Shown here piece after piece: positions 5,597-47,960 of a DNA stretch of 64,000 nucleotides (its first letter is position 1; every line of letters begins with the position of its first letter). Source of the stretch: Candidatus Azotimanducaceae bacterium. Lineage in GTDB: Bacteria > Pseudomonadota > Gammaproteobacteria > Pseudomonadales > Azotimanducaceae. The DNA lies in contig JBJKZD010000013.1 in the NCBI GenBank assembly GCA_045560765.1, positions 77,559-141,558 of the forward strand. Reading direction: 5' to 3'. A program made the translations under genes and the position numbers. Under the pieces are notes generated by a model that saw only the letters and a program-made list of their open reading frames with translations, did no database searches and was not told the origin of the DNA.

Positions 5597-6511
5597 ATGC
5601 GCAATCATCGACTTCGGCGTTGTCACATGACCGTCCCGGGCAGCAACGCAAAAATGCTAGAAAAAAGCCTGTCGGTTGATGTTGATGTCATTGTGATTGA
5701 TTTAGAAGATGCGGTTGCACCTCAGGAGAAATCTGCTGCGCGAGCCCTAGTGGCCGAGCACCTAACGCAGGCAACATGGCGAGCCCCGACAGTCTCAGTC
5801 AGAATTAACGACCTGAACTCCCCGCATTGTTTTCAAGATGTTATCGCCCTGATCGAAGCGGCCAGCCTGAGCGGGCGGCGCCCAGACACTTTGATTCTTC
5901 CCAAGACTCAGACCCGTGCAGATATCAGCTTTTTAGACCGGCTGTTATTACAGGTTGAGTCCGCCCACGGGATCAAAGAATCGGTCGGCATTGAAGCACT
6001 GATCGAGGATGCCAAAGGCATGATCAATATCAATGAGATAGCCGCGAGCAGTCCACGCCTCGAATCCTTGATTTTTGGGATGGGGGATTTTGCAGCCAGT
6101 CAACACATGCCCATGCTTGATATTGGCCGTCAAGGCGCTTACCCGGGTGACCTTTGGCACTACCCTCGTTCTCGATTGGTCATGGCGGCGAGGGCCTATG
6201 GTCTTGTTCCCATCGACGGTCCATTCGCGGACTACAAAGATGCCGAGGGCCTCACCGCTGACAGCCAAACCGGGAAATTGTTGGGGCTTTCAGGGAAATG
6301 GGCAATTCACCCCAACCAAGTCCCAATCATTTCTGAATGTTTTTCGCCAGATTCAGAGGATGTGGCCCGAGCCAGATCACAAAAAGCGGCCTATGAGCAG
6401 GCATTGGAAGCCGGCCAGGGTGCTGTCAGCGTAGATGGCGTGATGGTCGACCAGGCCACGATGAAGCTTATCGAGCCTCTACTTGCTCAGGCCGATCTAT
6501 TGCAGATCTGA
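5597..6511 (+). CDS. HpcH/HpaI aldolase - citrate lyase beta (CitE)-like acyl-CoA lyase (malyl-/citramalyl-CoA lyase type)
   Basis: LRRCHMTVPGSNAKMLEKS...DVIVIDLEDAV signature of the CitE family. No citD or citF nearby. Start at MRNHRLRR is inferred. Confidence 0.8.
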   Translation: MRNHRLRRCHMTVPGSNAKMLEKSLSVDVDVIVIDLEDAVAPQEKSAARALVAEHLTQATWRAPTVSVRINDLNSPHCFQDVIALIEAASLSGRRPDTLILPKTQTRADISFLDRLLLQVESAHGIKESVGIEALIEDAKGMININEIAASSPRLESLIFGMGDFAASQHMPMLDIGRQGAYPGDLWHYPRSRLVMAARAYGLVPIDGPFADYKDAEGLTADSQTGKLLGLSGKWAIHPNQVPIISECFSPDSEDVARARSQKAAYEQALEAGQGAVSVDGVMVDQATMKLIEPLLAQADLLQI

Positions 6512-9163: not shown

Positions 9164-10661
9164 ATGAACTCGACAGAACCTTGGCAATGGAGTGCTTGTC
9201 AAATCAAGACAGCGATTGCCGCCAAAGATATCTCCGCGGTTGAAGTTACCCGATCGCACCTCGAGCGCATTGATGCAGTCAACCCCGACGTCAATGCGAT
9301 GGTCACACTGGTGCCGGATCAAGCCCTTGCCCAAGCTGAAGCCATCGATCGCGCTGTGTCTAAAGGACAGTCTTTACCGGCTCTAGCTGGCGTCCCCACA
9401 GCCCACAAGGATCTAACTCTGACCAAGGGCATACGCACCACCTTCGGATCAAAACTCTTTGCTGATTTTGTCCCGACCCAAGACGCGGAAATTGTCACGA
9501 GAATACGCGCAGCCGGCGCGATCACCCTCGGAAAAACCAACACCCCGGAATGGGGCGCGGGCTCACATACGTTTAACCCTATTTTTGGCGTCACCCGCAA
9601 CCCTTACGACCTGTCCAAAAGTGCCGGGGGTAGCTCCGGAGGCGCAGCTGCGGCGCTTGCAGCAAGGATGATCCCCCTCGCTGACGGCAGTGATTTGGGT
9701 GGATCCCTTCGGAATCCAGCGAGTTTTTGTAATGTGGTTGGCTTTCGCACCACACCCGGTCGCGTACCACTGCTGCCAACAGATGCGCCTGGTGACCCCT
9801 TACCCATCGTTGGCCCGATGGCCCGCACAGTCGATGATTGCGCTTTGTTACTCAGCGTCATGTCTGGCTTTCATCCTGAGGCGCCGCTATCCAACATGGC
9901 GCTCGAAAATTATTCGCCTCCAATTGAGCCATTTTTGAATGAGCCTCGCATCGCCTTAAGCTCCAATTTCGACAATCAAATCCCCATTGAGGACGAAATC
10001 ATCAAGATTGTTGACAGCGTTAGCGGTGGATTACGTCAACTCGACGCGGAATATGAAATAGCCTGCCCAGATTTATCCGCTGCGAGCGAAATTTTTCATG
10101 TCCTGCGAGCATCAGCGTTTGCACGGCGGCACGGCGCTGGCGTTAGAAAGAACCCGGAGAACTATAAAGATACGGTGGTCTGGAATGTGGAACAAGGGCT
10201 TGCGCTTAACTCCCCAGCGGATCGAGGCAGCGGAGCAAGCGCGCACATTGTTGGTTCGGCGAGTCCACACTTTTTTTAAGGCCTACGACTTTCTTCTAAC
10301 GCCGGTGGTGCAAGTGCTGCCGTTTGATACTTCCTTGGAGTATGTGCAGCAAATCAAGGGTCAGTCCATGGGTACGTATATCGAGTGGATGCAATCCTGC
10401 TCTTTAATTTCTGTTACCGGCCTACCGGCATTGTCACTACCCTACGGCTTTAGCGAAACAGGACTTCCGGTGGGGCTTCAAATTATCGGCCGCCCAGGGG
10501 CTGACCTTTCTGTGCTTCGTTTGGCCAAAGCCCTTGAGACTCTGAATCCGGTTTGGCAGACGTCACCGGAGCTAGGCGCTAAGTCATCCCCGAGTATCCC
10601 GCTAAGAGGTGCACGTGCAGCTGTCCGAATCAAATCATCCAAACCAGGTCACCCATCTTGA
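9164..10661 (+). pseudogene. Amidase-signature family amidase, reading frame broken by a 1-nt insertion near 10208-10209
   Basis: Track ORFs 9164-10279 and 10098-10661 are the N- and C-terminal parts of one amidase (GGSSGGAAAALAA signature; C-terminal GLPVGLQIIGRPG). Removing one A from CTTAACTCCCC restores ...VEQGLALTPQRIEAAEQ... Confidence 0.8.
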
Positions 10662-11911: not shown

Positions 11912-12003
11912 GCTCTCACCTTAGGGGTGGTCCCAGGACCTGAGATGCCAAAAGGCGAACCCTAGAACCTGATCCGGATTATACCGGCGTAGGAAAAGGA
12001 CGT
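11912..12003 (+). promoter_or_regulatory. TPP (thiamine pyrophosphate, THI-box) riboswitch
   Basis: GGGGTGG..CCTGAGATGCC..GAACCCTAGAACCTGATCCGGATTATACCGGCGTAGGAAAAGG matches the conserved CUGAGA, ACCUGAUCYGGAUAAURCCRGCGUAGGRA core. It lies 55 nt upstream of the TonB receptor start. Confidence 0.88.
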
Positions 12004-12058
12004 TCAGATCTCCTCCCTTCGTTTCGTTCGGATTTAAGACCAATGAAATGAGGTGACT

Positions 12059-14110
12059 ATGTTTCGAACCCTTTTAATCTGCCTAATGCTGTGCACGACC
12101 AGTGTCTTCGCCAGTGACCAGGACCTACCCGAGGTCGTTGTCAGCGCGGACTTTCACAACTCAGAAGAACTCGACACCATAACCAGCATTACCGTGCTCT
12201 CAGAGACCGAAAAGCTCGCAAGAGGGGCGACCCACCTCGAAGCACTTTTAAACCTCGTCCCGAATTTGAACTACGCAATGGGGACCTCCCGAGCTAGATT
12301 TTTTCAGATACGGGGGATCGGTGAGCGCAGTCAATATGCCGAGCCTCTGAACAGCTCGGTTGGGCTCATGATTGATGGCATTGATTTTAGCGGCCTCGGC
12401 ACGATCGCAACCCTAACCGACCTCCAACAAATTGAGATTTTGCGCGGCCCTCAAGGGACCCGATTCGGGGCGAATGGACTCGCCGGACTCATCGCCATCA
12501 CAACAAAAGATCCCCAACCTGACTCATCGCTAGAAATCACCACCGGTATCGCTTCTCACAACGCTCGACAGGCCAGCATCACCCTCAATCAGCCGCTCAC
12601 GAGTAAAACCTCCGCACGACTGAATTTCAGTCGCCAGATTGCCGATGGCCACTACCAGAACGCTTTCTTAGATCGCAGCGATACCAACGACATTGATGAG
12701 CATCATCTCAATCTAAAACTTGTTTCTGAAGGCGACTCATTCGTCACAAAGTTAACCGCGATTGTTGCTGATGTAGATAACGGATTCGATGCGTTCACGT
12801 TAGACAATACACGCAACACCTTGTCTGACGAACCCGGGTTTGATCGTCAAAAAACCAAAGCCCTTGCCGTCTCTCTGCAGCGCAATCTCACGGCCGCATC
12901 GCTTGAATTTTTGGCTTCCATCAGCGACTCAAAGTTAGGGTATGGCTATGACGAGGACTGGAGCTACGTTGGCATTCACCCCTTCGGCTATCAATCAACG
13001 GATGAGTACTTCCGGGATCAATCTCACCGCAGTGCAGAATTGCGCCTTGTCTCAAGCCCCTCCCTTGAGCGGGATGAGGCCGCAACGACTTGGGCCCTGG
13101 GTCTTTACCGAACTGAACTGAGAAGCGATCTTTTAAGACGCTATACTTTTGCGGCGCCTTACAACAGCGACTACTCAAACAAGGCTACGGCGCTCTTCGC
13201 TGAAACATCACTGTCCCTAGCTCATCGCGTCAAACTGAACGCTGGGCTGAGGATCGAGCGCCGCCGTCGGGAATTCGACGACTCATTGTTGGTGGCATTT
13301 GATCCTTCTGAAACCTTATGGGGAGGTCGGTTGGGCCTGCAATATGGTTTGAATTCAGGCGGACAGCTGTATCTGAGCCTAAGCAAAGGTTTTAAGGCAG
13401 GCGGATTCAACACCGATGGCACACTCGATGAAGCATTGCGAGAGTTTGATTCGGAAACCTTGATCGAGACCGAACTGGGGTTTAAAGCCCAAACCCAGAG
13501 GTCAAGAATCAGATTCGCACTTTTTCATGCGGACCGGCGCGATCAGCAAGTTAAAAGTTCTCTGGTGCTCGCCCGATCGGACGGAAGCACTGAATTTATC
13601 GACTTTTTAGGCAATGCGGCCGAAGGTGTTAATCAAGGCTTGGAAGTTGAAGTCGAAACACAGTTGTTTGAGTCTTGGCAGCTGCGCTTTGCAGGGGGTT
13701 ATTTGGATGCAACCTTTGATCAATTCATCAATGAATTTGGTGACGACCTTGGGGGACGTGAACAAGCCCAGGCGCCGAAGGTTACCGCCAGTGCGGCCTT
13801 GAGCTTTGATCAAGGCAACCGGTTCGCAAGTCTCGGCATTGACCACAAGGCGAGCTACTATTTTTCAGACCGACATGACACGCGGAGCAAGGCCTTTACC
13901 ACTGTGAACCTTGCATTAGGCATGGAGTGGCCAAACTGGCGACTATCGGTGTGGGGGCGTAACCTGACAGACGAGACAATTTATACCCGCGGCTTTGGCA
14001 GCTTTGGTAACGATCCACGCAAAGACTATGTAACTGAACCCTATTTTCAGTTCGGCGAACCAAGAACCATTGGGTTGACGGTTTCTTATTTGGGACAGAG
14101 AGGGCAATAG
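12059..14110 (+). CDS. TonB-dependent outer-membrane receptor (thiamine/thiamine-precursor type inferred from riboswitch)
   Basis: Signal peptide MFRTLLICLMLCTTSVFA, plug-domain motifs (IEILRGPQGTRFGANGLAGLI), and a long beta-barrel ending in an aromatic-rich C-terminus. A TPP riboswitch lies immediately upstream. Confidence 0.88.
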   Translation: MFRTLLICLMLCTTSVFASDQDLPEVVVSADFHNSEELDTITSITVLSETEKLARGATHLEALLNLVPNLNYAMGTSRARFFQIRGIGERSQYAEPLNSSVGLMIDGIDFSGLGTIATLTDLQQIEILRGPQGTRFGANGLAGLIAITTKDPQPDSSLEITTGIASHNARQASITLNQPLTSKTSARLNFSRQIADGHYQNAFLDRSDTNDIDEHHLNLKLVSEGDSFVTKLTAIVADVDNGFDAFTLDNTRNTLSDEPGFDRQKTKALAVSLQRNLTAASLEFLASISDSKLGYGYDEDWSYVGIHPFGYQSTDEYFRDQSHRSAELRLVSSPSLERDEAATTWALGLYRTELRSDLLRRYTFAAPYNSDYSNKATALFAETSLSLAHRVKLNAGLRIERRRREFDDSLLVAFDPSETLWGGRLGLQYGLNSGGQLYLSLSKGFKAGGFNTDGTLDEALREFDSETLIETELGFKAQTQRSRIRFALFHADRRDQQVKSSLVLARSDGSTEFIDFLGNAAEGVNQGLEVEVETQLFESWQLRFAGGYLDATFDQFINEFGDDLGGREQAQAPKVTASAALSFDQGNRFASLGIDHKASYYFSDRHDTRSKAFTTVNLALGMEWPNWRLSVWGRNLTDETIYTRGFGSFGNDPRKDYVTEPYFQFGEPRTIGLTVSYLGQRGQ

Positions 14111-14426: not shown

Positions 14427-15053
14427 ATGAACGATACAGTCTCAGCGCTCGCCGACGGCTTGCGCCAAACCTCAGCCATGGAGCTCGTCGCCGTCATTTT
14501 AGCATTGGTGTATTTAATTTTGGCCGTCCGAGAAAACCTCTGGTGCTGGGCCGCCGCTGGTGGCTCGACGCTCATCTATCTGTTCTTGTTTTTTGAAGTT
14601 GGGCTCTATGCGGAAAGCGCCTTGCAAATTTACTACCTCGGCATGGCGGGTTATGGATTCCAGCAATGGCGATCGAAGGCCTCGGCTCACCCTCTGCCAG
14701 AGGCAAAAGCCATCATCCGCTGGTCCATACCCAAACACCTATTGGCCCTAACATTCATCGCGGCCAGCACCAGCAGCCTTGGATGGGTACTCCTTCAGAC
14801 CGATAGCCAGGCACCTTTTCTTGATGCTTTTACAACCTGCGCAGCCCTTGTGACCACCTACATGGTGACCCAAAAAATATTAGAAAATTGGATTTACTGG
14901 CTGGTGATAGACGCAGCCGCGATTGTGCTCTATCTCGATCGGGCGCTCTACTTTACCGCCCTACTCTTCGGAATCTATATTGTCATTGTTATTGTAGGCT
15001 ACTGGCGTTGGCTTAAAATTTTTCGGATTTCACAAAAAGGAAATCAGACATGA
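14427..15053 (+). CDS. PnuC-family vitamin transporter (PnuT-like, thiamine specificity inferred from context)
   Basis: ELVAVILALVYLILAVRENLWCW... matches the PnuC family N-terminus, with about 7 TM segments. The gene sits downstream of the TPP-riboswitch-controlled receptor. Start taken at MNDTVS. Confidence 0.75.
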   Translation: MNDTVSALADGLRQTSAMELVAVILALVYLILAVRENLWCWAAAGGSTLIYLFLFFEVGLYAESALQIYYLGMAGYGFQQWRSKASAHPLPEAKAIIRWSIPKHLLALTFIAASTSSLGWVLLQTDSQAPFLDAFTTCAALVTTYMVTQKILENWIYWLVIDAAAIVLYLDRALYFTALLFGIYIVIVIVGYWRWLKIFRISQKGNQT

Positions 15054-24553: not shown

Positions 24554-24639
24554 GAATTATGATCGATTCATTGACTTGTGCCCAGCGAAGCAGATAGTCT
24601 TTTCACGCTTCATTCAAACAGGTGTTTTGATCGTCTAAC

Positions 24640-24812
24640 GCACGATGATCAGAATGAAACGGGAAACCGGTGAGATCCGATGGATCCATTCCGGTGCTGC
24701 CCCCGCAACGGTAAGCGAGGTGTTCTGCTTTTTACCACTGTGTGAAATTCGCATGGGAAGGTTGCAGAACAACCGTGACAACACGACGCTCGCAAGCCCG
24801 GAGACCGGCCTG
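24640..24812 (+). promoter_or_regulatory. Cobalamin (B12) riboswitch
   Basis: AAACGGGAAACCGGTGAGATCCG...CCGGTGCTGCCCCCGCAACGGTAAGC...CCACTGTG...GGGAAGG...AAGCCCGGAGACCGGCC, with the B12 box at 24794-24810. It lies about 95 nt upstream of the receptor gene. Confidence 0.88.
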
Positions 24813-24907
24813 ATATCAATGAACGATGAACTGCGGCGGGCGGTTTCAGCGATGATCCTTTCCCTGCTTGCTCAACTTACCTCCAATTGCTCGGTGGGAG
24901 CAGGAGT

Positions 24908-26863
24908 ATGCACCTCATGTTTTCAGCACTTTACATCGCTTCTTATTTTCAGCGCCAACAACCGTTAACCCTCCGAAAATCACACATCCTTTGCCTCGTT
25001 GCTTTGACGCTACTGTCATCGACTTGGCATCAAACCAATGCCGATCCGATTGAAGAACGGATGACAATTACAGCCTCCCGAGTTCCTACCGATCAAATGA
25101 GGACTGGCAACGGGATTGCGATCATCACAAGAGAGCAAATCTTAAGACAAAACCCAGCCTCCCTTGGGGACCTCCTCCAAGGACTTCCTGGCGTGAGCGT
25201 AAGCCAGCAGAGTGGTCAAGGCGGCCTCACTCAAGTAAGAATGCGCGGACGAGAGGCGAACCATGTTTTAGTGCTCGTCGATGGCATCGAAGCCAACGAT
25301 ATCAGCCAGGGCAGTGAATTCAATTTCAGTCAATTCCCAGTGCACCATATTGATCGTATCGAAGTTGTCTATGGCGCCGAGAGCGCGCTTTGGGGCAGCG
25401 ATGCCGTGGCTGGTGTTATTCATATCATGACCCGATCGCTTTACGCTGAACCCAGTACTGATCTCTCACTCAGTCAGGGCGGGCAAGGCAGCCAACACAT
25501 TAATCTCTCCGCCTCTTCTAATCTTGGCCCCATGCGCTGGGCAGGTGGTGTAAGTTTTTGGGAAACCGAAGGCTTCAATGTATCTCGTCAGGGCGATGAA
25601 CGGGATGGTGCTGATCAAAAAGCGCTCTTTCTACGAGCAACGAGTGCTCTGACAAAAAACTGGCAATGGTCCGCAGCGATAAGGTCCCAGAAGAATCGCA
25701 ATGATTTCGATGATGTTGATTATTACGCCACAGGACTACCGATCGATGCCAATTTCGAAACGTATCACCAGCAATGGCTCGGCGGCTTCACTTTAGAATC
25801 GGTTGATCAACTCATCGCCCAGAAACTCACGGTGAATTACAATCGGGATAAAAATATCAACCAGACGTATCCAGGGTCACAAACCCTCGCGGATGGCAAT
25901 AAACGACAGATCAATTATCAAATCAGCCGTCAACAACAAGGTCAGACCCTCATCGGTTTCATCGAGCATGAGCGCAATCACTTCACCCAGGCGGGCCTTG
26001 CGACGATTTACGGCGACCCGAATCAATCGCAATCCGTCTCGCAACTGGCTCTTGGAGGTGAATACCGCTTGGACACTCCTGACTGGACTGCAGGCATCAG
26101 TGTTCGTCTAGAAGATAATTCGGATTTTGAACAAGGATATAGCGCCCGGGGCAGCGCCGCTTATTTTCTAAGCGACCGAACGAAAATGCGCGCTGCGCTC
26201 GGAAGATCCGTCAAAAATCCAACCTTCACCGAACGATTTGGTTACTTTACCAACTTTGTCGGTAACCCCGATTTGATCCCCGAAGTCAGTTTAGAGTTGG
26301 ACATCGGCATTCGGCACCAATTTTCCAAAGCCCCTGTCACCGTTAATCTCTCCGCTTACACCGCTCGCCTCGATGACGAAATCAACGGGTTTGTTTTTGA
26401 CTCGGCGACGTTTTTGTACACCGCCCAAAATGAAGCCAAGGTGAGCAAGCAACAGGGTTTTGACGTCAATCTCGATTGGCGGATTCATTCCTCAATGACA
26501 CTGACAGCCTATTATGGACGGCTCACTGCCAGAGACGGCTTGTCTCAGATCGAACTTAGGCGTCCTCGCCACAAAGCAGGCATGGCCATCAGCTTCTACA
26601 GTGATCGTTGGTCTTCCCGTCTCGCTGCAGACTACACCGGCTCGTTGTTAGACAATTTTTTCCCGCCAACGCCGCCTTACTCAGAGATTGTAGAGCTAGA
26701 TGAACATACTTTGGTATCGTTGAGCAGTCGGTTCAATGTTAGTGAAAAACTAGCCCTTCAACTGAACATCGATAACCTGTTTGATGAACGTTTTGAATCC
26801 GTGTACGGTTACCGCCAGTCGGGAAGACTGACAAGGGTTGGTTTAAATTTTAGGTTCAACTAA
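24908..26863 (+). CDS. btuB: TonB-dependent vitamin B12 (cobalamin) outer-membrane receptor
   Basis: A cobalamin riboswitch lies upstream. Plug-domain motifs (DLLQGLPGVSVSQQSGQGGLTQVRMRGREANHVLVLVDGI) and a C-terminal ...GLNFRFN. Start at ATG 24908, preceded by AGGAG. Confidence 0.85.
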   Translation: MHLMFSALYIASYFQRQQPLTLRKSHILCLVALTLLSSTWHQTNADPIEERMTITASRVPTDQMRTGNGIAIITREQILRQNPASLGDLLQGLPGVSVSQQSGQGGLTQVRMRGREANHVLVLVDGIEANDISQGSEFNFSQFPVHHIDRIEVVYGAESALWGSDAVAGVIHIMTRSLYAEPSTDLSLSQGGQGSQHINLSASSNLGPMRWAGGVSFWETEGFNVSRQGDERDGADQKALFLRATSALTKNWQWSAAIRSQKNRNDFDDVDYYATGLPIDANFETYHQQWLGGFTLESVDQLIAQKLTVNYNRDKNINQTYPGSQTLADGNKRQINYQISRQQQGQTLIGFIEHERNHFTQAGLATIYGDPNQSQSVSQLALGGEYRLDTPDWTAGISVRLEDNSDFEQGYSARGSAAYFLSDRTKMRAALGRSVKNPTFTERFGYFTNFVGNPDLIPEVSLELDIGIRHQFSKAPVTVNLSAYTARLDDEINGFVFDSATFLYTAQNEAKVSKQQGFDVNLDWRIHSSMTLTAYYGRLTARDGLSQIELRRPRHKAGMAISFYSDRWSSRLAADYTGSLLDNFFPPTPPYSEIVELDEHTLVSLSSRFNVSEKLALQLNIDNLFDERFESVYGYRQSGRLTRVGLNFRFN

Positions 26864-42368: not shown

Positions 42369-43535
42369 ATGATCATGAAGCACTTCAAACTCACTTGTCA
42401 TCAATTCGTCATTTGCAGCCTCGCGACGCTGATTGGGTGTACCCCAGACGAACCCGAGCGCGGACTCGGTACCGAGACCGAGACCGAGACCGAAATTTTA
42501 GTCGAAGCACCAACAGACGGCCCGATAAACCCTAACGGCGTCGACTGCAGCGCGGCCTCTGGGATAACGCCGGTCTGCGGGTTTAAAAACCCGGAAGACC
42601 TGAGACACATCCCCGGCACATCCTTATTGCTGGTCAGTGAAATGGGCGAATTCATGCTCGATACTCCAGGTCACCTTCGTCTTTTTGATATCGACACTCA
42701 AGCCAGACAACCCTTGGACATTGATTGGACCCGCACCGAGCCCCGTTGGGGAGACCCAGCGTGCCCAGCACCAGATGTTCAAAAATTTAGCCCACACGGT
42801 ATTGATCTTGTCGCCCTTGACGATGAAACCCTGAAACTTTTAGTGGTTAACCACGGCGGACGAGAATCCATTGAGTTTTTTGAAGTCACCACCGGTGCTG
42901 CTGGTTCAGCCTTGATCTGGCAAGGATGCGCATTACCCCCGGGGGACCCTTTCATCAATGACGTTGTTGGATTAAAACAAGGCGGATTTTTTGTGACCCA
43001 GATGTGGAACAAATCTACGCCATTCGAGGACGTTGCCGCGCAGCTTTTACGCGGAGAGGCAACCGGCTGGGTCTGGGAGTGGCAGCCAGAGCAGGGCTTC
43101 TCTGTCCTACCGGACAGCAAGGAATTAATGCCTAACGGAATTGCCATCAGCGCCGACGAGCAAACCCTGTTTATCAACATCTACATGGGTCATCGCCTGA
43201 TCAAATATGACCGCAGCGAGAGCGCCGTCATCGGTAGCGTTTCGGTCAGACAACCGGATAACGTAACAAGAGACAACGATGGCATGCTTTGGGTGGCCTC
43301 TCACCAGCAAGATCCGATCGCGGACACATGCACCATGGAGGTCGGGCCATGCTTGCTGCCTTTTGAGGTCGTTCGAATCGATCCCGAGACCCTGGAACGT
43401 GAAACGCTTCTCAGCCACGTCGGCCAGCCCATGGGCTATTCGACGGTCGCGCTCAAAGTTGAGAATACGGTTTATCTCGGCACAGCCCACGGAGATCGCA
43501 TCGCTCACTTTGCGCTTGAGGGGAAATCCCTCTAG
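42369..43535 (+). CDS. Lipoprotein with SMP-30/gluconolactonase/paraoxonase-like six-bladed beta-propeller
   Basis: Lipobox LATLIGC, then a flexible TETETE linker encoded by (ACCGAG)3ACCGAA at 42471-42494. Propeller-type motifs PNGIAISADEQTLFI and DNDGMLWVA. Confidence 0.55.
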   Translation: MIMKHFKLTCHQFVICSLATLIGCTPDEPERGLGTETETETEILVEAPTDGPINPNGVDCSAASGITPVCGFKNPEDLRHIPGTSLLLVSEMGEFMLDTPGHLRLFDIDTQARQPLDIDWTRTEPRWGDPACPAPDVQKFSPHGIDLVALDDETLKLLVVNHGGRESIEFFEVTTGAAGSALIWQGCALPPGDPFINDVVGLKQGGFFVTQMWNKSTPFEDVAAQLLRGEATGWVWEWQPEQGFSVLPDSKELMPNGIAISADEQTLFINIYMGHRLIKYDRSESAVIGSVSVRQPDNVTRDNDGMLWVASHQQDPIADTCTMEVGPCLLPFEVVRIDPETLERETLLSHVGQPMGYSTVALKVENTVYLGTAHGDRIAHFALEGKSL

Positions 43536-43615
43536 GCCTCGCTGACAGAATCCTGCCTGCCCCGAGAGCTGCTTGCAGACAAGGTCCTGTTTCAGGATAG
43601 AGATCCCTTGACAGC

Positions 43616-44116
43616 TTAATCGCTCAATGGCTCGCCGTTGAGCGAGGTTCGATGACGCACTTCGTGGGGCGCTCGAATAACATCCATTAAAAAGCACATT
43701 TGCTCCGCCAGTGCCACGAGCGCTTCAATCTCGGCCTTCGGAGCAGAAGAGTCAATATGGAGCTCCGTCTCAACGTCTAACAGCCGACTCTGGATAGTAC
43801 CCGCACGAATCGAACCCGTTTGTTCAAAACGAGGGAACACCTTCATTGACGCGTCATTGAGCACAATCTTCTTCGCCTCGCTCGACCGAGCAAGCTGGGT
43901 GAGCATTCAAAATGCAATCGATGCGGCAAAGTATGCAAGCGGCGGCGGCGCACTGTTGGCACCCCCAAGACTCGTGCCCTCGTCACAGAGCATTTCAAAA
44001 TGGTCAAACAGCGCCATTTTAACCTGGCCTTCCCCTTTGACTGCTCGAACTTCAAACCCCAACTCAAAGCCCCCTGTAACGGGTGTTATTTGAAAAGGTG
44101 ATGTTTCGTTGGCCAT
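43616..44116 (-). CDS. OsmC/Ohr-family peroxiredoxin-like protein with in-frame UGA (43909-43907) at the conserved Cys position; candidate selenoprotein
   Basis: Track ORFs 43907-44116 and 43616-43906 are contiguous and in the same frame, separated only by TGA. Joined, they read ...GGANSAPPPLAYFAASIAF-U-MLTQLARSS...LAEQMCFLMDVIRAP..., a single OsmC domain. A SECIS-like hairpin follows the TGA. Confidence 0.65.
43877..43894 (-). promoter_or_regulatory. Candidate bacterial SECIS stem-loop
   Basis: The mRNA reads UGA AUG CUC ACC CAG CUUGCUC-GGUC-GAGCGAG. The stem is 7 bp (one G-U pair), and the GGUC loop sits at +23 to +26 from the U of UGA. Confidence 0.5.
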
Positions 44117-44337
44117 TCTCTGACTCTCTCTGAATGAATTGGCTATCAGTCTACAGGACTGATGGCGGGGGACCAGCGCAAGATCAATCCTCTTCCCTCT
44201 TCCCTCTTCAATTCACCCGCAGTAATCGCTCATTCACAGATCCACGGGAATCGGGCCGCTGAAATCCTTGCAGCGGATTGGGGTTGGCCCTTTATTCACC
44301 CATGCTATAGTTTCAATCTTTTAAGAATGTGTAAGTC

Positions 44338-47128: not shown

Positions 47129-47960
47129 ATGAAAGCATTTAAGGATAGAGTTGCGGTGATCACAGGCGGTGGCAGCGGAATCGGTCTCGGCATCGCGAAT
47201 GCCTTTGCCGCTCGAGGCATGAGACTGGTGATCGCAGATGTCAATGAACAGACCATCGAAAATACTGTCTTCGAACTCAAACAAAACGGCGTCGACGCCA
47301 TCGGCGTGCGCTGCGATGTATCAAAACTCGAAGATGTAGAGCACCTTGCGGAGGCGACATTAAACACCTTTGGCGGCGTCCATGTTCTTTGCAATAATGC
47401 GGGCGTCGGACTGCCTACTTCTTCAAGATCCATCAAACTCGAAGACTGGAAATGGATCATTGATGTGGATCTCTGGGGCCCAATTTATGGCGTTAAGGTC
47501 TTTGGACCGTTAATCGAGGCCCAAGGCGAAGGCCATATCAGTGCGACAGCCTCAATGGCCGGTCTTATTTCCGCCAATAAAATGGGCGCCTATAGCGTCG
47601 CCAAACACGGTGTCGTTGCTCTGATGTGCGCCCTTGAGCGTGAACTGCGCAGCAAGCAGAGCCCGATCACCGCATCTGTTTTGTGCCCTGGCCCCATCAA
47701 CACCAACATCAGTCACAACTCTCTGGCCTATCGTCCTGAACGAGACCCGACCCTTGCGCCACCTAAAGTTTCCGGCGCCAAGGGGCGCCAGCATACAAGC
47801 GGCACTTGAAGAGGGGATGCCGCCCAACGAGGTCGGTGAATTAGTGGCGAGCGCCATTGAGAACGATAAATTTTGGGTATTGACCCACCCTTGGTGGGCG
47901 AAAGGGGTGCAAAGACAGCTCGATGCCCTGCGGGATGATCAGTCTCTCACCAAAGCTTAA
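47129..47960 (+). pseudogene. SDR-family oxidoreductase, frame broken by a 1-nt insertion near the G4 run at 47782-47785
   Basis: ORF 47129-47809 carries TGGGSGIGLGIA, NNAG and YSVAKHGVV. Overlapping ORF 47634-47960, in the +1 frame, supplies the expected C-terminus (...ASIQAALEEGMPPNEVGELVASAIENDKFWVLTHP...). Confidence 0.75.

What the first reader, a model, noticed from the sequence alone, without database searches (positions are those of the whole stretch)
43616..44116. OsmC-family gene with an in-frame UGA at the catalytic Cys position plus an fdhF-like SECIS hairpin: candidate selenoprotein
Seen directly: the two track ORFs 43907-44116(-) and 43616-43906(-) are contiguous and in the same frame, separated only by TGA (43909-43907). 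Neither half is a complete domain. Joined, they give one OsmC/Ohr fold of about 166 aa. The TGA falls where this family carries its first conserved redox Cys (...PPPLAYFAASIAF-[UGA]-MLTQLARSS...), and the second conserved Cys is present (LAEQMCFLMDV). Twelve nt after the UGA the mRNA can fold into CUUGCUC-GGUC-GAGCGAG (43894-43877). Counting the U of UGA as +1, the loop GGUC occupies +23 to +26. From memory, the E. coli fdhF SECIS has G22 G23 U24 C25 in its apical loop, with G23/U24 needed for SelB binding, so spacing and loop sequence agree to within 1 nt. TGA is a normal stop elsewhere in the window (for example 6509-6511 and 15051-15053), so this is not a code reassignment. OsmC-like Sec proteins have been predicted from ocean metagenomes but remain uncharacterised experimentally. 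A Cys-to-Sec peroxidatic residue would be functionally meaningful.
Basis: partly seen in the sequence, partly recalled or inferred. Interest (0 to 1): 0.78.

Follow-up and report, generated by a model that had tools for sequence, protein, structure and literature searches.

The report
Known OsmC-like selenoprotein gene, correctly spotted
The two adjacent small ORFs are one 166-codon gene for an OsmC-like redox protein that puts selenocysteine at its active-site cysteine position. The reading is well supported, but the family was predicted from ocean metagenomes in 2005 and already has a curated NCBI model, so it is ordinary.

Summary
Window 44116-43616 (-) is one reading frame of 166 codons, broken only by TGA at 43909-43907. 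An 18-nt hairpin, CUUGCUC-GGUC-GAGCGAG, starts 12 nt after the TGA.

- With Cys in place of the TGA, the joined protein scores 139.7 bits (cut-off 95) on NCBIfam NF041052, 'OsmC-related (seleno)protein'. It carries the published UxxT motif (U-M-L-T).
- All 25 homologous loci (54-98% identity) have TGA at this codon, never TAA or TAG, and both halves are conserved in frame.
- Full-length relatives and solved OsmC/Ohr structures have Cys at this column.
- The three codons at the hairpin apex (GCU CGG UCG) are the only degenerate codons in the gene that never vary.
- Five independent assemblies about 99% identical to the window all carry the TGA, so it is not a base-call error.
- TGA ends 14 of 47 window genes, so the code is not reassigned.

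Weak points: the hairpin alone is not statistically unusual, shows no compensatory changes and matches no Rfam family. selA, selB, selD and tRNA-Sec are not in the window. No paper I found tests the family experimentally.

Verdict: a real and very probably Sec-encoding gene, already known. Low interest.

The parts
43616..44116 (-). Complete OsmC-like selenoprotein gene: ATG at 44116-44114, 166 sense codons including Sec70, TAA stop at 43618-43616
   Evidence: Single frame. Pfam OsmC PF02566, 43.6 bits. NCBIfam NF041052 OsmC_like_Se, 139.7 bits against a cut-off of 95. Both halves conserved in frame in 25 loci.
43907..43909 (-). UGA codon 70, read as selenocysteine; first residue of the UxxT motif (U-M-L-T)
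   Evidence: TGA at this codon in 25 of 25 homologous loci and in 5 near-identical assemblies. The column is Cys in 3cje, 6mjn, 1n2f and 1lql and in 25 of 27 full-length relatives.
43877..43894 (-). Candidate bacterial SECIS hairpin CUUGCUC-GGUC-GAGCGAG: 7 bp including one G.U, loop at 43887-43884, starting 12 nt after the UGA
   Evidence: Folds as predicted. The consensus over 17 sequences is 6 bp plus a 4-nt loop. Codons 76-78 (GCU CGG UCG) are invariant at synonymous sites. The pattern occurs once in the window, against 0.02 expected. It is the only GGUC-loop hairpin after any of 2586 TGAs.
43694..43696 (-). Cys141 codon (TGC), the second conserved redox Cys and inferred resolving residue, in AEQMCFLMD
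   Evidence: Invariant in all homologues. Aligns with the second Cys of 3cje and of Ohr 6mjn and 1n2f.
43985..43987 (-). Cys44 codon (TGT) in the invariant C-D-E motif; a third Cys of unknown role
   Evidence: Invariant in 23 distinct Sec-form sequences. In the Cys-form relatives the position is C, S or A, so it is unlikely to be essential.

Best explanation
This is one gene for a 166-residue OsmC-like protein of the published 'OsmC-like, UxxT' selenoprotein family (NCBIfam NF041052).

Decoding (inferred). UGA codon 70 is read as selenocysteine. A short mRNA hairpin 12 nt downstream (6-7 bp, apical loop GGUC) acts as the bacterial SECIS. It would recruit SelB.GTP.Sec-tRNA(Sec) to the ribosome so that Sec insertion outcompetes release factor 2.

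Chemistry (inferred from OsmC/Ohr). Sec70 sits at the position of the first conserved Cys of OsmC/Ohr enzymes, and Cys141 at the position of the second. By analogy with OsmC/Ohr chemistry, the selenolate of Sec70 attacks a hydroperoxide or another oxidised substrate. The resulting selenenic acid condenses with Cys141 to an intramolecular selenenylsulfide. A thiol donor such as a lipoylated protein or thioredoxin then reduces it.

Shown here: gene continuity, family membership, the Sec/Cys column, and conservation of the TGA and of the hairpin nucleotides.

Not shown: actual Sec insertion, SelB binding, the peroxidase reaction and the reductant.
For: - One frame with a single TGA.
- NF041052 at 139.7 bits against a cut-off of 95, and Pfam OsmC.
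- All 25 homologous loci at 54-98% identity have TGA, never TAA or TAG, although the window uses TAA 17, TAG 16 and TGA 14 times as stops.
- Both halves show amino-acid conservation together with synonymous variation. For example, APPPLAYFA has 100% amino-acid identity but only 21-50% codon identity.
- The U column is Cys in solved OsmC/Ohr structures and in 25 of 27 full-length relatives.
- The hairpin apex codons GCU-CGG-UCG are the only invariant degenerate codons in the gene. Ser79 uses only AGY.
- Seven of the eight variant stem cells stay paired through G.U.
- Five loci have Leu CTG or CTA after the TGA, so the second half cannot initiate there.
- Five independent assemblies carry the same TGA.
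- The literature describes exactly this family and motif (PMC1088965, PMC2398784, PMC13188914).
Against: - The 64-kb window has no selA, selB, selD or tRNA-Sec, and no second selenoprotein gene. The host's capacity to use Sec is therefore untested.
- The hairpin is small and no more stable than shuffled sequence (z = +1.0).
- It has no compensatory double substitutions.
- One locus has a U.U mismatch in the stem (L010).
- No Rfam family matched, even at E up to 10.
- It has no bulged U in the stem; from memory, the E. coli fdhF element has one.
- The window assembly contains at least one probable 1-nt indel elsewhere, so this copy is not error-free.
- The papers found in the searchable library are sequence surveys or reviews; none tests the family by experiment.
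- The Glu of the Ohr 'PEQL' segment is replaced by PPPL, and the Ohr family models score far below their cut-offs. Peroxidase chemistry is therefore an analogy.
Confidence: 0.88

Rival explanations
1. A genuinely split OsmC. The TGA is a true stop, and the 96-residue second half is translated separately from the ATG that directly follows it (TGAATG coupling). The two half-proteins then assemble.
For: ATG follows the TGA immediately in the window and in 20 of 25 loci. Gene callers in public databases annotate the two halves as separate ORFs.
Against: - Five loci (L009, L024, L025, L026, L029) have CTA or CTG at that codon.
- There is no purine-rich Shine-Dalgarno sequence before the ATG.
- The stop is always TGA, although the window uses all three stop codons about equally.
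- The break falls exactly on the catalytic Cys column, so a split would delete the active-site residue.
- The synonymous constraint on the hairpin would be left unexplained.
Confidence: 0.04
2. A pseudogene or a sequencing or assembly error. A TGC or TGT Cys codon was miscalled or mutated to TGA in this window.
For: The window does contain probable frameshift errors elsewhere: an extra G in the SDR gene near 47782, and a split amidase. One related short contig has TGG at this codon (L005). One genome carries a 5'-truncated copy (L003).
Against: The same TGA is present in five independent assemblies about 99% identical to the window and in 25 loci down to 54% identity, with both halves under purifying selection. 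A pseudogene would not keep the downstream half and the hairpin conserved.
Confidence: 0.01
3. UGA is read through by something other than Sec. Candidates are near-cognate Trp or Cys insertion, or a Sec-like tRNA charged with Cys, in a host that has lost the Sec machinery. The product would be a full-length protein without selenium.
For: The Sec machinery was not found in the window. L005 shows that TGG (Trp) can occupy the codon.
Against: The strictly conserved hairpin with a G-containing apical loop at SECIS distance is what SelB-dependent decoding needs, and is not required for near-cognate readthrough. Family NF041052 is curated as a selenoprotein family. TGA is an ordinary stop for 14 window genes.
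Confidence: 0.05

Closest known systems
'OsmC-like protein' selenoprotein family (motif UxxT, COG1765/PF02566) of Zhang, Fomenko & Gladyshev 2005 (PMC1088965); NCBIfam NF041052 'OsmC-related (seleno)protein'
   Same: Passes the curated HMM at 139.7 bits against a cut-off of 95. Has the U-x-x-T motif (U-M-L-T) and the OsmC domain. Has a stem-loop with G in a small apical loop after the UGA. Comes from marine bacterial metagenomes.
   Different: Nothing of substance. This work adds the depth of conservation of the hairpin (codons 76-78 invariant). It also adds the observation that many database entries for the family are mis-called as two ORFs.
PDB 3cje, 'OsmC-like protein' (Cys form; closest solved structure)
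   Same: E = 1.3e-11 over residues 36-159. Shares SAPPPLA.F....C..TQ and the second Cys in .CFL.
   Different: 3cje has Cys where this protein has Sec, and Thr where this protein has Cys44. Sequence similarity is only moderate (48 bits).
Ohr/OsmC thiol peroxidases (e.g. P. aeruginosa Ohr 1n2f, Ohr 6mjn)
   Same: Same fold family. Sec70 aligns with the first conserved Cys of Ohr and Cys141 with the second. From memory, these are the peroxidatic (Cys60) and resolving Cys.
   Different: Scores far below the Ohr family cut-offs (TIGR03561 14.5 against 88.85; NF052637 19.5 against 240). The 'PEQL' segment of Ohr is PPPL here. From memory, the Glu of that segment is catalytic in Ohr. Peroxidase activity is untested.
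E. coli fdhF SECIS (recalled from memory, not tested here)
   Same: Apical loop GGUC, about 20 nt after the UGA. The loop is at +23 to +26 here, against +22 to +25 in fdhF.
   Different: The stem is only 6-7 bp, with no bulged U and no extended lower helix. Four loci have loop GGGU instead of GGUC.

Membership tests
NCBIfam NF041052 / 'OsmC-like (UxxT)' selenoprotein family | Score above the curated HMM cut-off | tested here: met
   139.7 bits against a cut-off of 95, covering residues 27-161 and model positions 10-144 of 144.
NCBIfam NF041052 / 'OsmC-like (UxxT)' selenoprotein family | Redox motif U-x-x-T, as listed in PMC1088965 Table 3 and PMC2398784 | tested here: met
   ...IAF-U-M-L-T-QLA.... 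Motif taken.
NCBIfam NF041052 / 'OsmC-like (UxxT)' selenoprotein family | OsmC domain (PF02566) | tested here: met
   43.6 bits against a cut-off of 27.5, residues 52-154.
Bacterial selenoprotein gene (SelB/SECIS-dependent UGA recoding) | In-frame UGA with conserved coding sequence on both sides | tested here: met
   25 of 25 loci have TGA at the same codon, and both halves are conserved with synonymous variation.
Bacterial selenoprotein gene (SelB/SECIS-dependent UGA recoding) | UGA aligns with Cys in homologues (Sec/Cys pair) | tested here: met
   Cys in 3cje, 6mjn, 1n2f and 1lql. Cys in 25 of 27 full-length relatives.
Bacterial selenoprotein gene (SelB/SECIS-dependent UGA recoding) | Stem-loop just downstream of the UGA, with a small apical loop containing G (criterion as worded in PMC1088965) | tested here: met
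   6-7 bp stem with loop GGUC (GGGU in four loci), starting 12 nt after the UGA and conserved at synonymous sites. Caveats: no compensatory changes, z-score not significant, no Rfam match.
Bacterial selenoprotein gene (SelB/SECIS-dependent UGA recoding) | Host genome encodes selA, selB, selD and tRNA-Sec (selC) | not testable with these tools
   None is present in the 64-kb window: no tRNA, no Rfam hit, and no SelA, SelB or SelD domains in 49 ORFs. The rest of the MAG cannot be searched here.
Bacterial selenoprotein gene (SelB/SECIS-dependent UGA recoding) | Selenium is actually incorporated at the UGA | not testable with these tools
   Needs 75Se labelling or mass spectrometry. The papers found are sequence surveys or reviews, not experiments.
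Ohr / OsmC peroxidases proper | Two conserved redox Cys at the family positions | tested here: met
   Sec70 and Cys141 align with the two Cys of Ohr 6mjn and 1n2f.
Ohr / OsmC peroxidases proper | Scores above the Ohr family models, and the Glu of the PEQL segment is conserved | tested here: not met
   TIGR03561 14.5 against 88.85; NF052637 19.5 against 240. PPPL replaces PEQL in the alignment. It is an OsmC-superfamily member of a separate subfamily, not an Ohr.
E. coli fdhF-type SECIS | GGUC apical loop at about +22 to +25, plus a bulged U in the upper stem (features recalled from memory) | tested here: inconclusive
   The loop sequence is identical and shifted by 1 nt. No bulged U appears in the predicted stem. 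SelB binding cannot be tested.

The most novel reading that the evidence does not exclude
The UGA-AUG junction, present in 20 of 25 Sec-form loci but in only 4 of the 25 Cys-form relatives, might give a selenium-dependent dual output. With selenium, the cell would make the full-length Sec enzyme. Without it, translation would terminate at the UGA and re-initiate at the adjacent AUG, giving two half-proteins. This would be a built-in selenium switch. The evidence weakens this reading (no Shine-Dalgarno sequence; CTG or CTA in five loci) but does not exclude it for the ATG-bearing clade.
Probability: 0.04. Interest if true: 0.5.

Novelty: already known. Interest (0 to 1): 0.2.

Why it matters
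It matters mostly for annotation. Public gene calls split this gene into a 69-residue and a 96-residue 'hypothetical protein'. Many more distant relatives in the databases also begin at the residue after the Sec column. The Sec form of this OsmC subfamily is therefore probably under-counted.

Biologically it is one more example of marine bacteria (a Pseudomonadales-like MAG) using Sec in a thiol-redox enzyme. The open question is whether a Sec-containing OsmC-type protein is a better hydroperoxide reductase, and what reduces it. That question has not been addressed by experiment, but the family has been known as a prediction since 2005.

Tried and rejected
- **Rfam.** The gathering-threshold scan of the window and the E up to 10 scan of 43500-44300 found no SECIS family, only chance hits to SNORD107 and HOTTIP.
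- **Thermodynamics.** The hairpin is not more stable than shuffled sequence, so stability is not used as evidence.
- **Covariation.** RNAalifold found no compensatory pair, so conservation rather than covariation carries the argument.
- **Sec machinery.** No selA, selB, selD or tRNA-Sec was found in the window or in the flanks of 27 related loci.
- **Other selenoprotein genes in the window.** Thirty-five in-frame TGAs have at least 50 open codons on both sides. None besides this one fell in a plausible gene.
- **Conserved gene neighbourhood.** Synteny (monooxygenase, SGL-like protein, ECH) holds only in relatives with at least 87% identity, so there is no conserved operon partner.
- The C-terminal half was searched instead.
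- **Genome-collection scan.** It gave only one locus, because a single protein query reaches only close relatives.
- **Code reassignment.** Rejected, because TGA is the stop of 14 of 47 genes.

Full report
**1. The observation**

On the minus strand, window 44116-43616 is one reading frame: 69 codons, TGA (43909-43907), 96 codons, TAA. The 18-nt inverted repeat CUUGCUC-GGUC-GAGCGAG lies at 43894-43877. It begins 12 nt after the UGA, and its loop is at +23 to +26. TGA ends 14 of 47 long ORFs in the window, against 17 for TAA and 16 for TAG, so the genetic code is standard. Every coordinate in the finding is correct.

**2. What the protein is**

With Cys written at codon 70, the joined protein matches two models:
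- Pfam OsmC (PF02566) at 43.6 bits.
- NCBIfam NF041052, 'OsmC_like_Se: OsmC-related (seleno)protein', at 139.7 bits against a curated cut-off of 95.

The Ohr models score far below their cut-offs. The closest solved structure is 3cje, an 'OsmC-like protein', at E = 1.3e-11. In that alignment, and in those to Ohr 6mjn and 1n2f and to 1lql, codon 70 falls on the first conserved Cys of the family. Cys141 falls on the second conserved Cys in 3cje, 6mjn and 1n2f.

**3. Comparative evidence for recoding**

A protein search returned almost only fragments of about 96 residues starting at MLTQLARSSE, the residue after the TGA. It also returned a few N-terminal halves ending in ...SIAF. Fetching the DNA gave 25 homologous loci at 54-98% identity.
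- In all of them, tblastn spans the junction in one frame, and the codon is TGA, never TAA or TAG.
- Both halves show purifying selection. For example, APPPLAYFA is 100% identical in amino acids but only 21-50% identical in codons.
- Five loci have CTA or CTG rather than ATG after the TGA, so the second half cannot be an independently initiated gene there.
- A search of 1.84 billion representatives with the C-terminal half found full-length relatives of 140-320 aa. Of 27 inspected, 25 have Cys at the column, within F-C-[LM]-L-T-Q.
- Many further relatives at 30-48% identity are again about 95-residue entries starting at MLTQ. This suggests more Sec forms that were mis-called as two ORFs, though I did not verify their DNA.

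**4. The hairpin**

Taken alone, the hairpin is weak evidence.
- Its energy is no better than that of shuffled sequence (z = +1.0).
- 2% of the 2586 TGA trinucleotides in the window are followed by a hairpin of at least 7 bp with GU in the loop.
- No Rfam family matches.
- RNAalifold finds 6 pairs with no compensatory double change.

Conservation makes it convincing.
- Codons 76-78 (Ala GCU, Arg CGG, Ser UCG) form the top of the 5' arm and the loop. They are the only degenerate codons in the whole gene with 100% codon identity across 23 distinct sequences. Other Ala, Arg and Ser codons in the gene run at 0.2-0.5.
- Ser79 uses only AGY.
- Seven of the eight variant stem cells remain paired through G.U.
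- Four loci carry loop GGGU instead of GGUC.
- This hairpin is the only GGUC tetraloop after any TGA in the window.

This fits the criterion used in the original survey, a stem-loop just downstream of the UGA with a small apical loop containing G (PMC1088965). The resemblance to E. coli fdhF rests on memory: the same GGUC loop, shifted by 1 nt. The bulged U of fdhF is absent here.

**5. Not an error**

The exact 96-residue product is indexed in 61 blocks of the assembly collection. Five independent assemblies are about 99% identical to the window, and all have TGA at this codon. They include NCBI MAG GCA_965656615.1, contig CBFHLK010000018.1 (64.7 kb). This matters because the window does contain a probable 1-nt indel elsewhere.

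**6. What could not be shown**

The window has no tRNA gene. None of its 49 ORFs carries SelA, SelB or SelD domains. No second selenoprotein candidate was found, and no tRNA-Sec lies in the flanks of the related loci. Gene order is conserved only among close relatives, so context gives no clue to function.

**7. Mechanism**

- Shown: one gene, family membership, the Sec/Cys column, and a conserved RNA element.
- Inferred from established knowledge of bacterial Sec decoding: the hairpin binds SelB.GTP.Sec-tRNA(Sec) and directs Sec insertion at UGA70.
- Inferred by analogy with OsmC/Ohr: Sec70 is the peroxidatic residue and forms a selenenylsulfide with Cys141, which a thiol donor then reduces.

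The protein lacks the Glu of the Ohr 'PEQL' segment. From memory, that Glu is catalytic in Ohr. According to PMC1088965 the family belongs to COG1765 rather than OsmC proper. The substrate is therefore uncertain.

**8. Comparison with what is known, and novelty**

Zhang, Fomenko and Gladyshev (2005) listed an 'OsmC-like protein' selenoprotein family from the Sargasso Sea. It had 3 sequences, belonged to COG1765, had motif UxxT, and came with a drawn SECIS (PMC1088965). The GOS survey found 5 sequences (PMC2398784). A 2026 review still lists the family (PMC13188914), and NCBI has a curated HMM for it. The window's U-M-L-T is that motif.

The 16 papers that mention both OsmC and selenocysteine were listed by title and abstract only; those that deal with the family are sequence surveys or reviews. 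The finding is therefore correct but already known. Its value lies in annotation: merging the two ORFs and marking the Sec codon.

**9. Verdict**

I give about 0.88 confidence that this is a genuine Sec-encoding gene. Novelty: already known. Interest: 0.2.

Noticed in passing
window 47129-47959 (+), around 47781-47785: The short-chain dehydrogenase gene is frameshifted in the window by one extra G in a G run (CCAAGGGGCGCC against CCAAGGGCGCC in L030). It gives a 226-aa ORF instead of the intact 276-aa product seen in the near-identical assembly L030. This is probably an assembly or sequencing indel.
   Followed up: yes
window 9164-10279 (+) and 10098-10661 (+): An amidase (PF01425) is split over two overlapping ORFs in different frames (profile positions 1-295 and 347-445). 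This is either a frameshift pseudogene or another indel error.
   Followed up: partly
window 24603-24828 (+) and 11913-12012 (+): A cobalamin riboswitch (104.6 bits) lies directly upstream of a TonB-dependent receptor (24887-26863). A TPP riboswitch (68.5 bits) lies directly upstream of another TonB-dependent receptor (12053-14110). These are probably vitamin-uptake receptors under riboswitch control.
   Followed up: no
L003:5598-6294 (5.0-Mb contig); same junction in L002: In this genome the OsmC-Sec gene is a 5'-truncated remnant. Only ...APPPLAYFAASIAF-TGA-MLTQ... onward is kept, with the hairpin intact. The upstream sequence, in another frame, is a fragment of an IS91-family Y2 transposase (Pfam Y2_Tnp, 23.7 bits; ...LERLCRYITRP). 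L002 and L004 carry a serine recombinase gene about 1.1-1.4 kb upstream that is absent from L003.
   Followed up: partly
L005:226-768 (856-bp metagenome contig): A 54%-identical homologue has TGG (Trp) instead of TGA at the Sec codon and CTG instead of ATG after it, yet it keeps the hairpin (CUCGCUC-GGUC-GAGCGAC). It may be a decaying or inactivated copy, or a read error. Only a single short contig is available.
   Followed up: partly
window 43985-43987 (-), codon 44: Cys44 in the C-D-E motif is invariant in all 23 distinct Sec-form sequences. In the Cys-form relatives the position alternates between C, S and A, and it is Thr in PDB 3cje. It could be a third redox or relay residue; its role is unknown.
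   Followed up: partly
database hits P0071-P0150: Many relatives at 30-48% identity are entries of about 85-100 residues that begin exactly at the residue after the Sec column (MLTQ...). This suggests the Sec form is spread over several divergent clades and is routinely mis-annotated as two ORFs. Their DNA was not checked.
   Followed up: no
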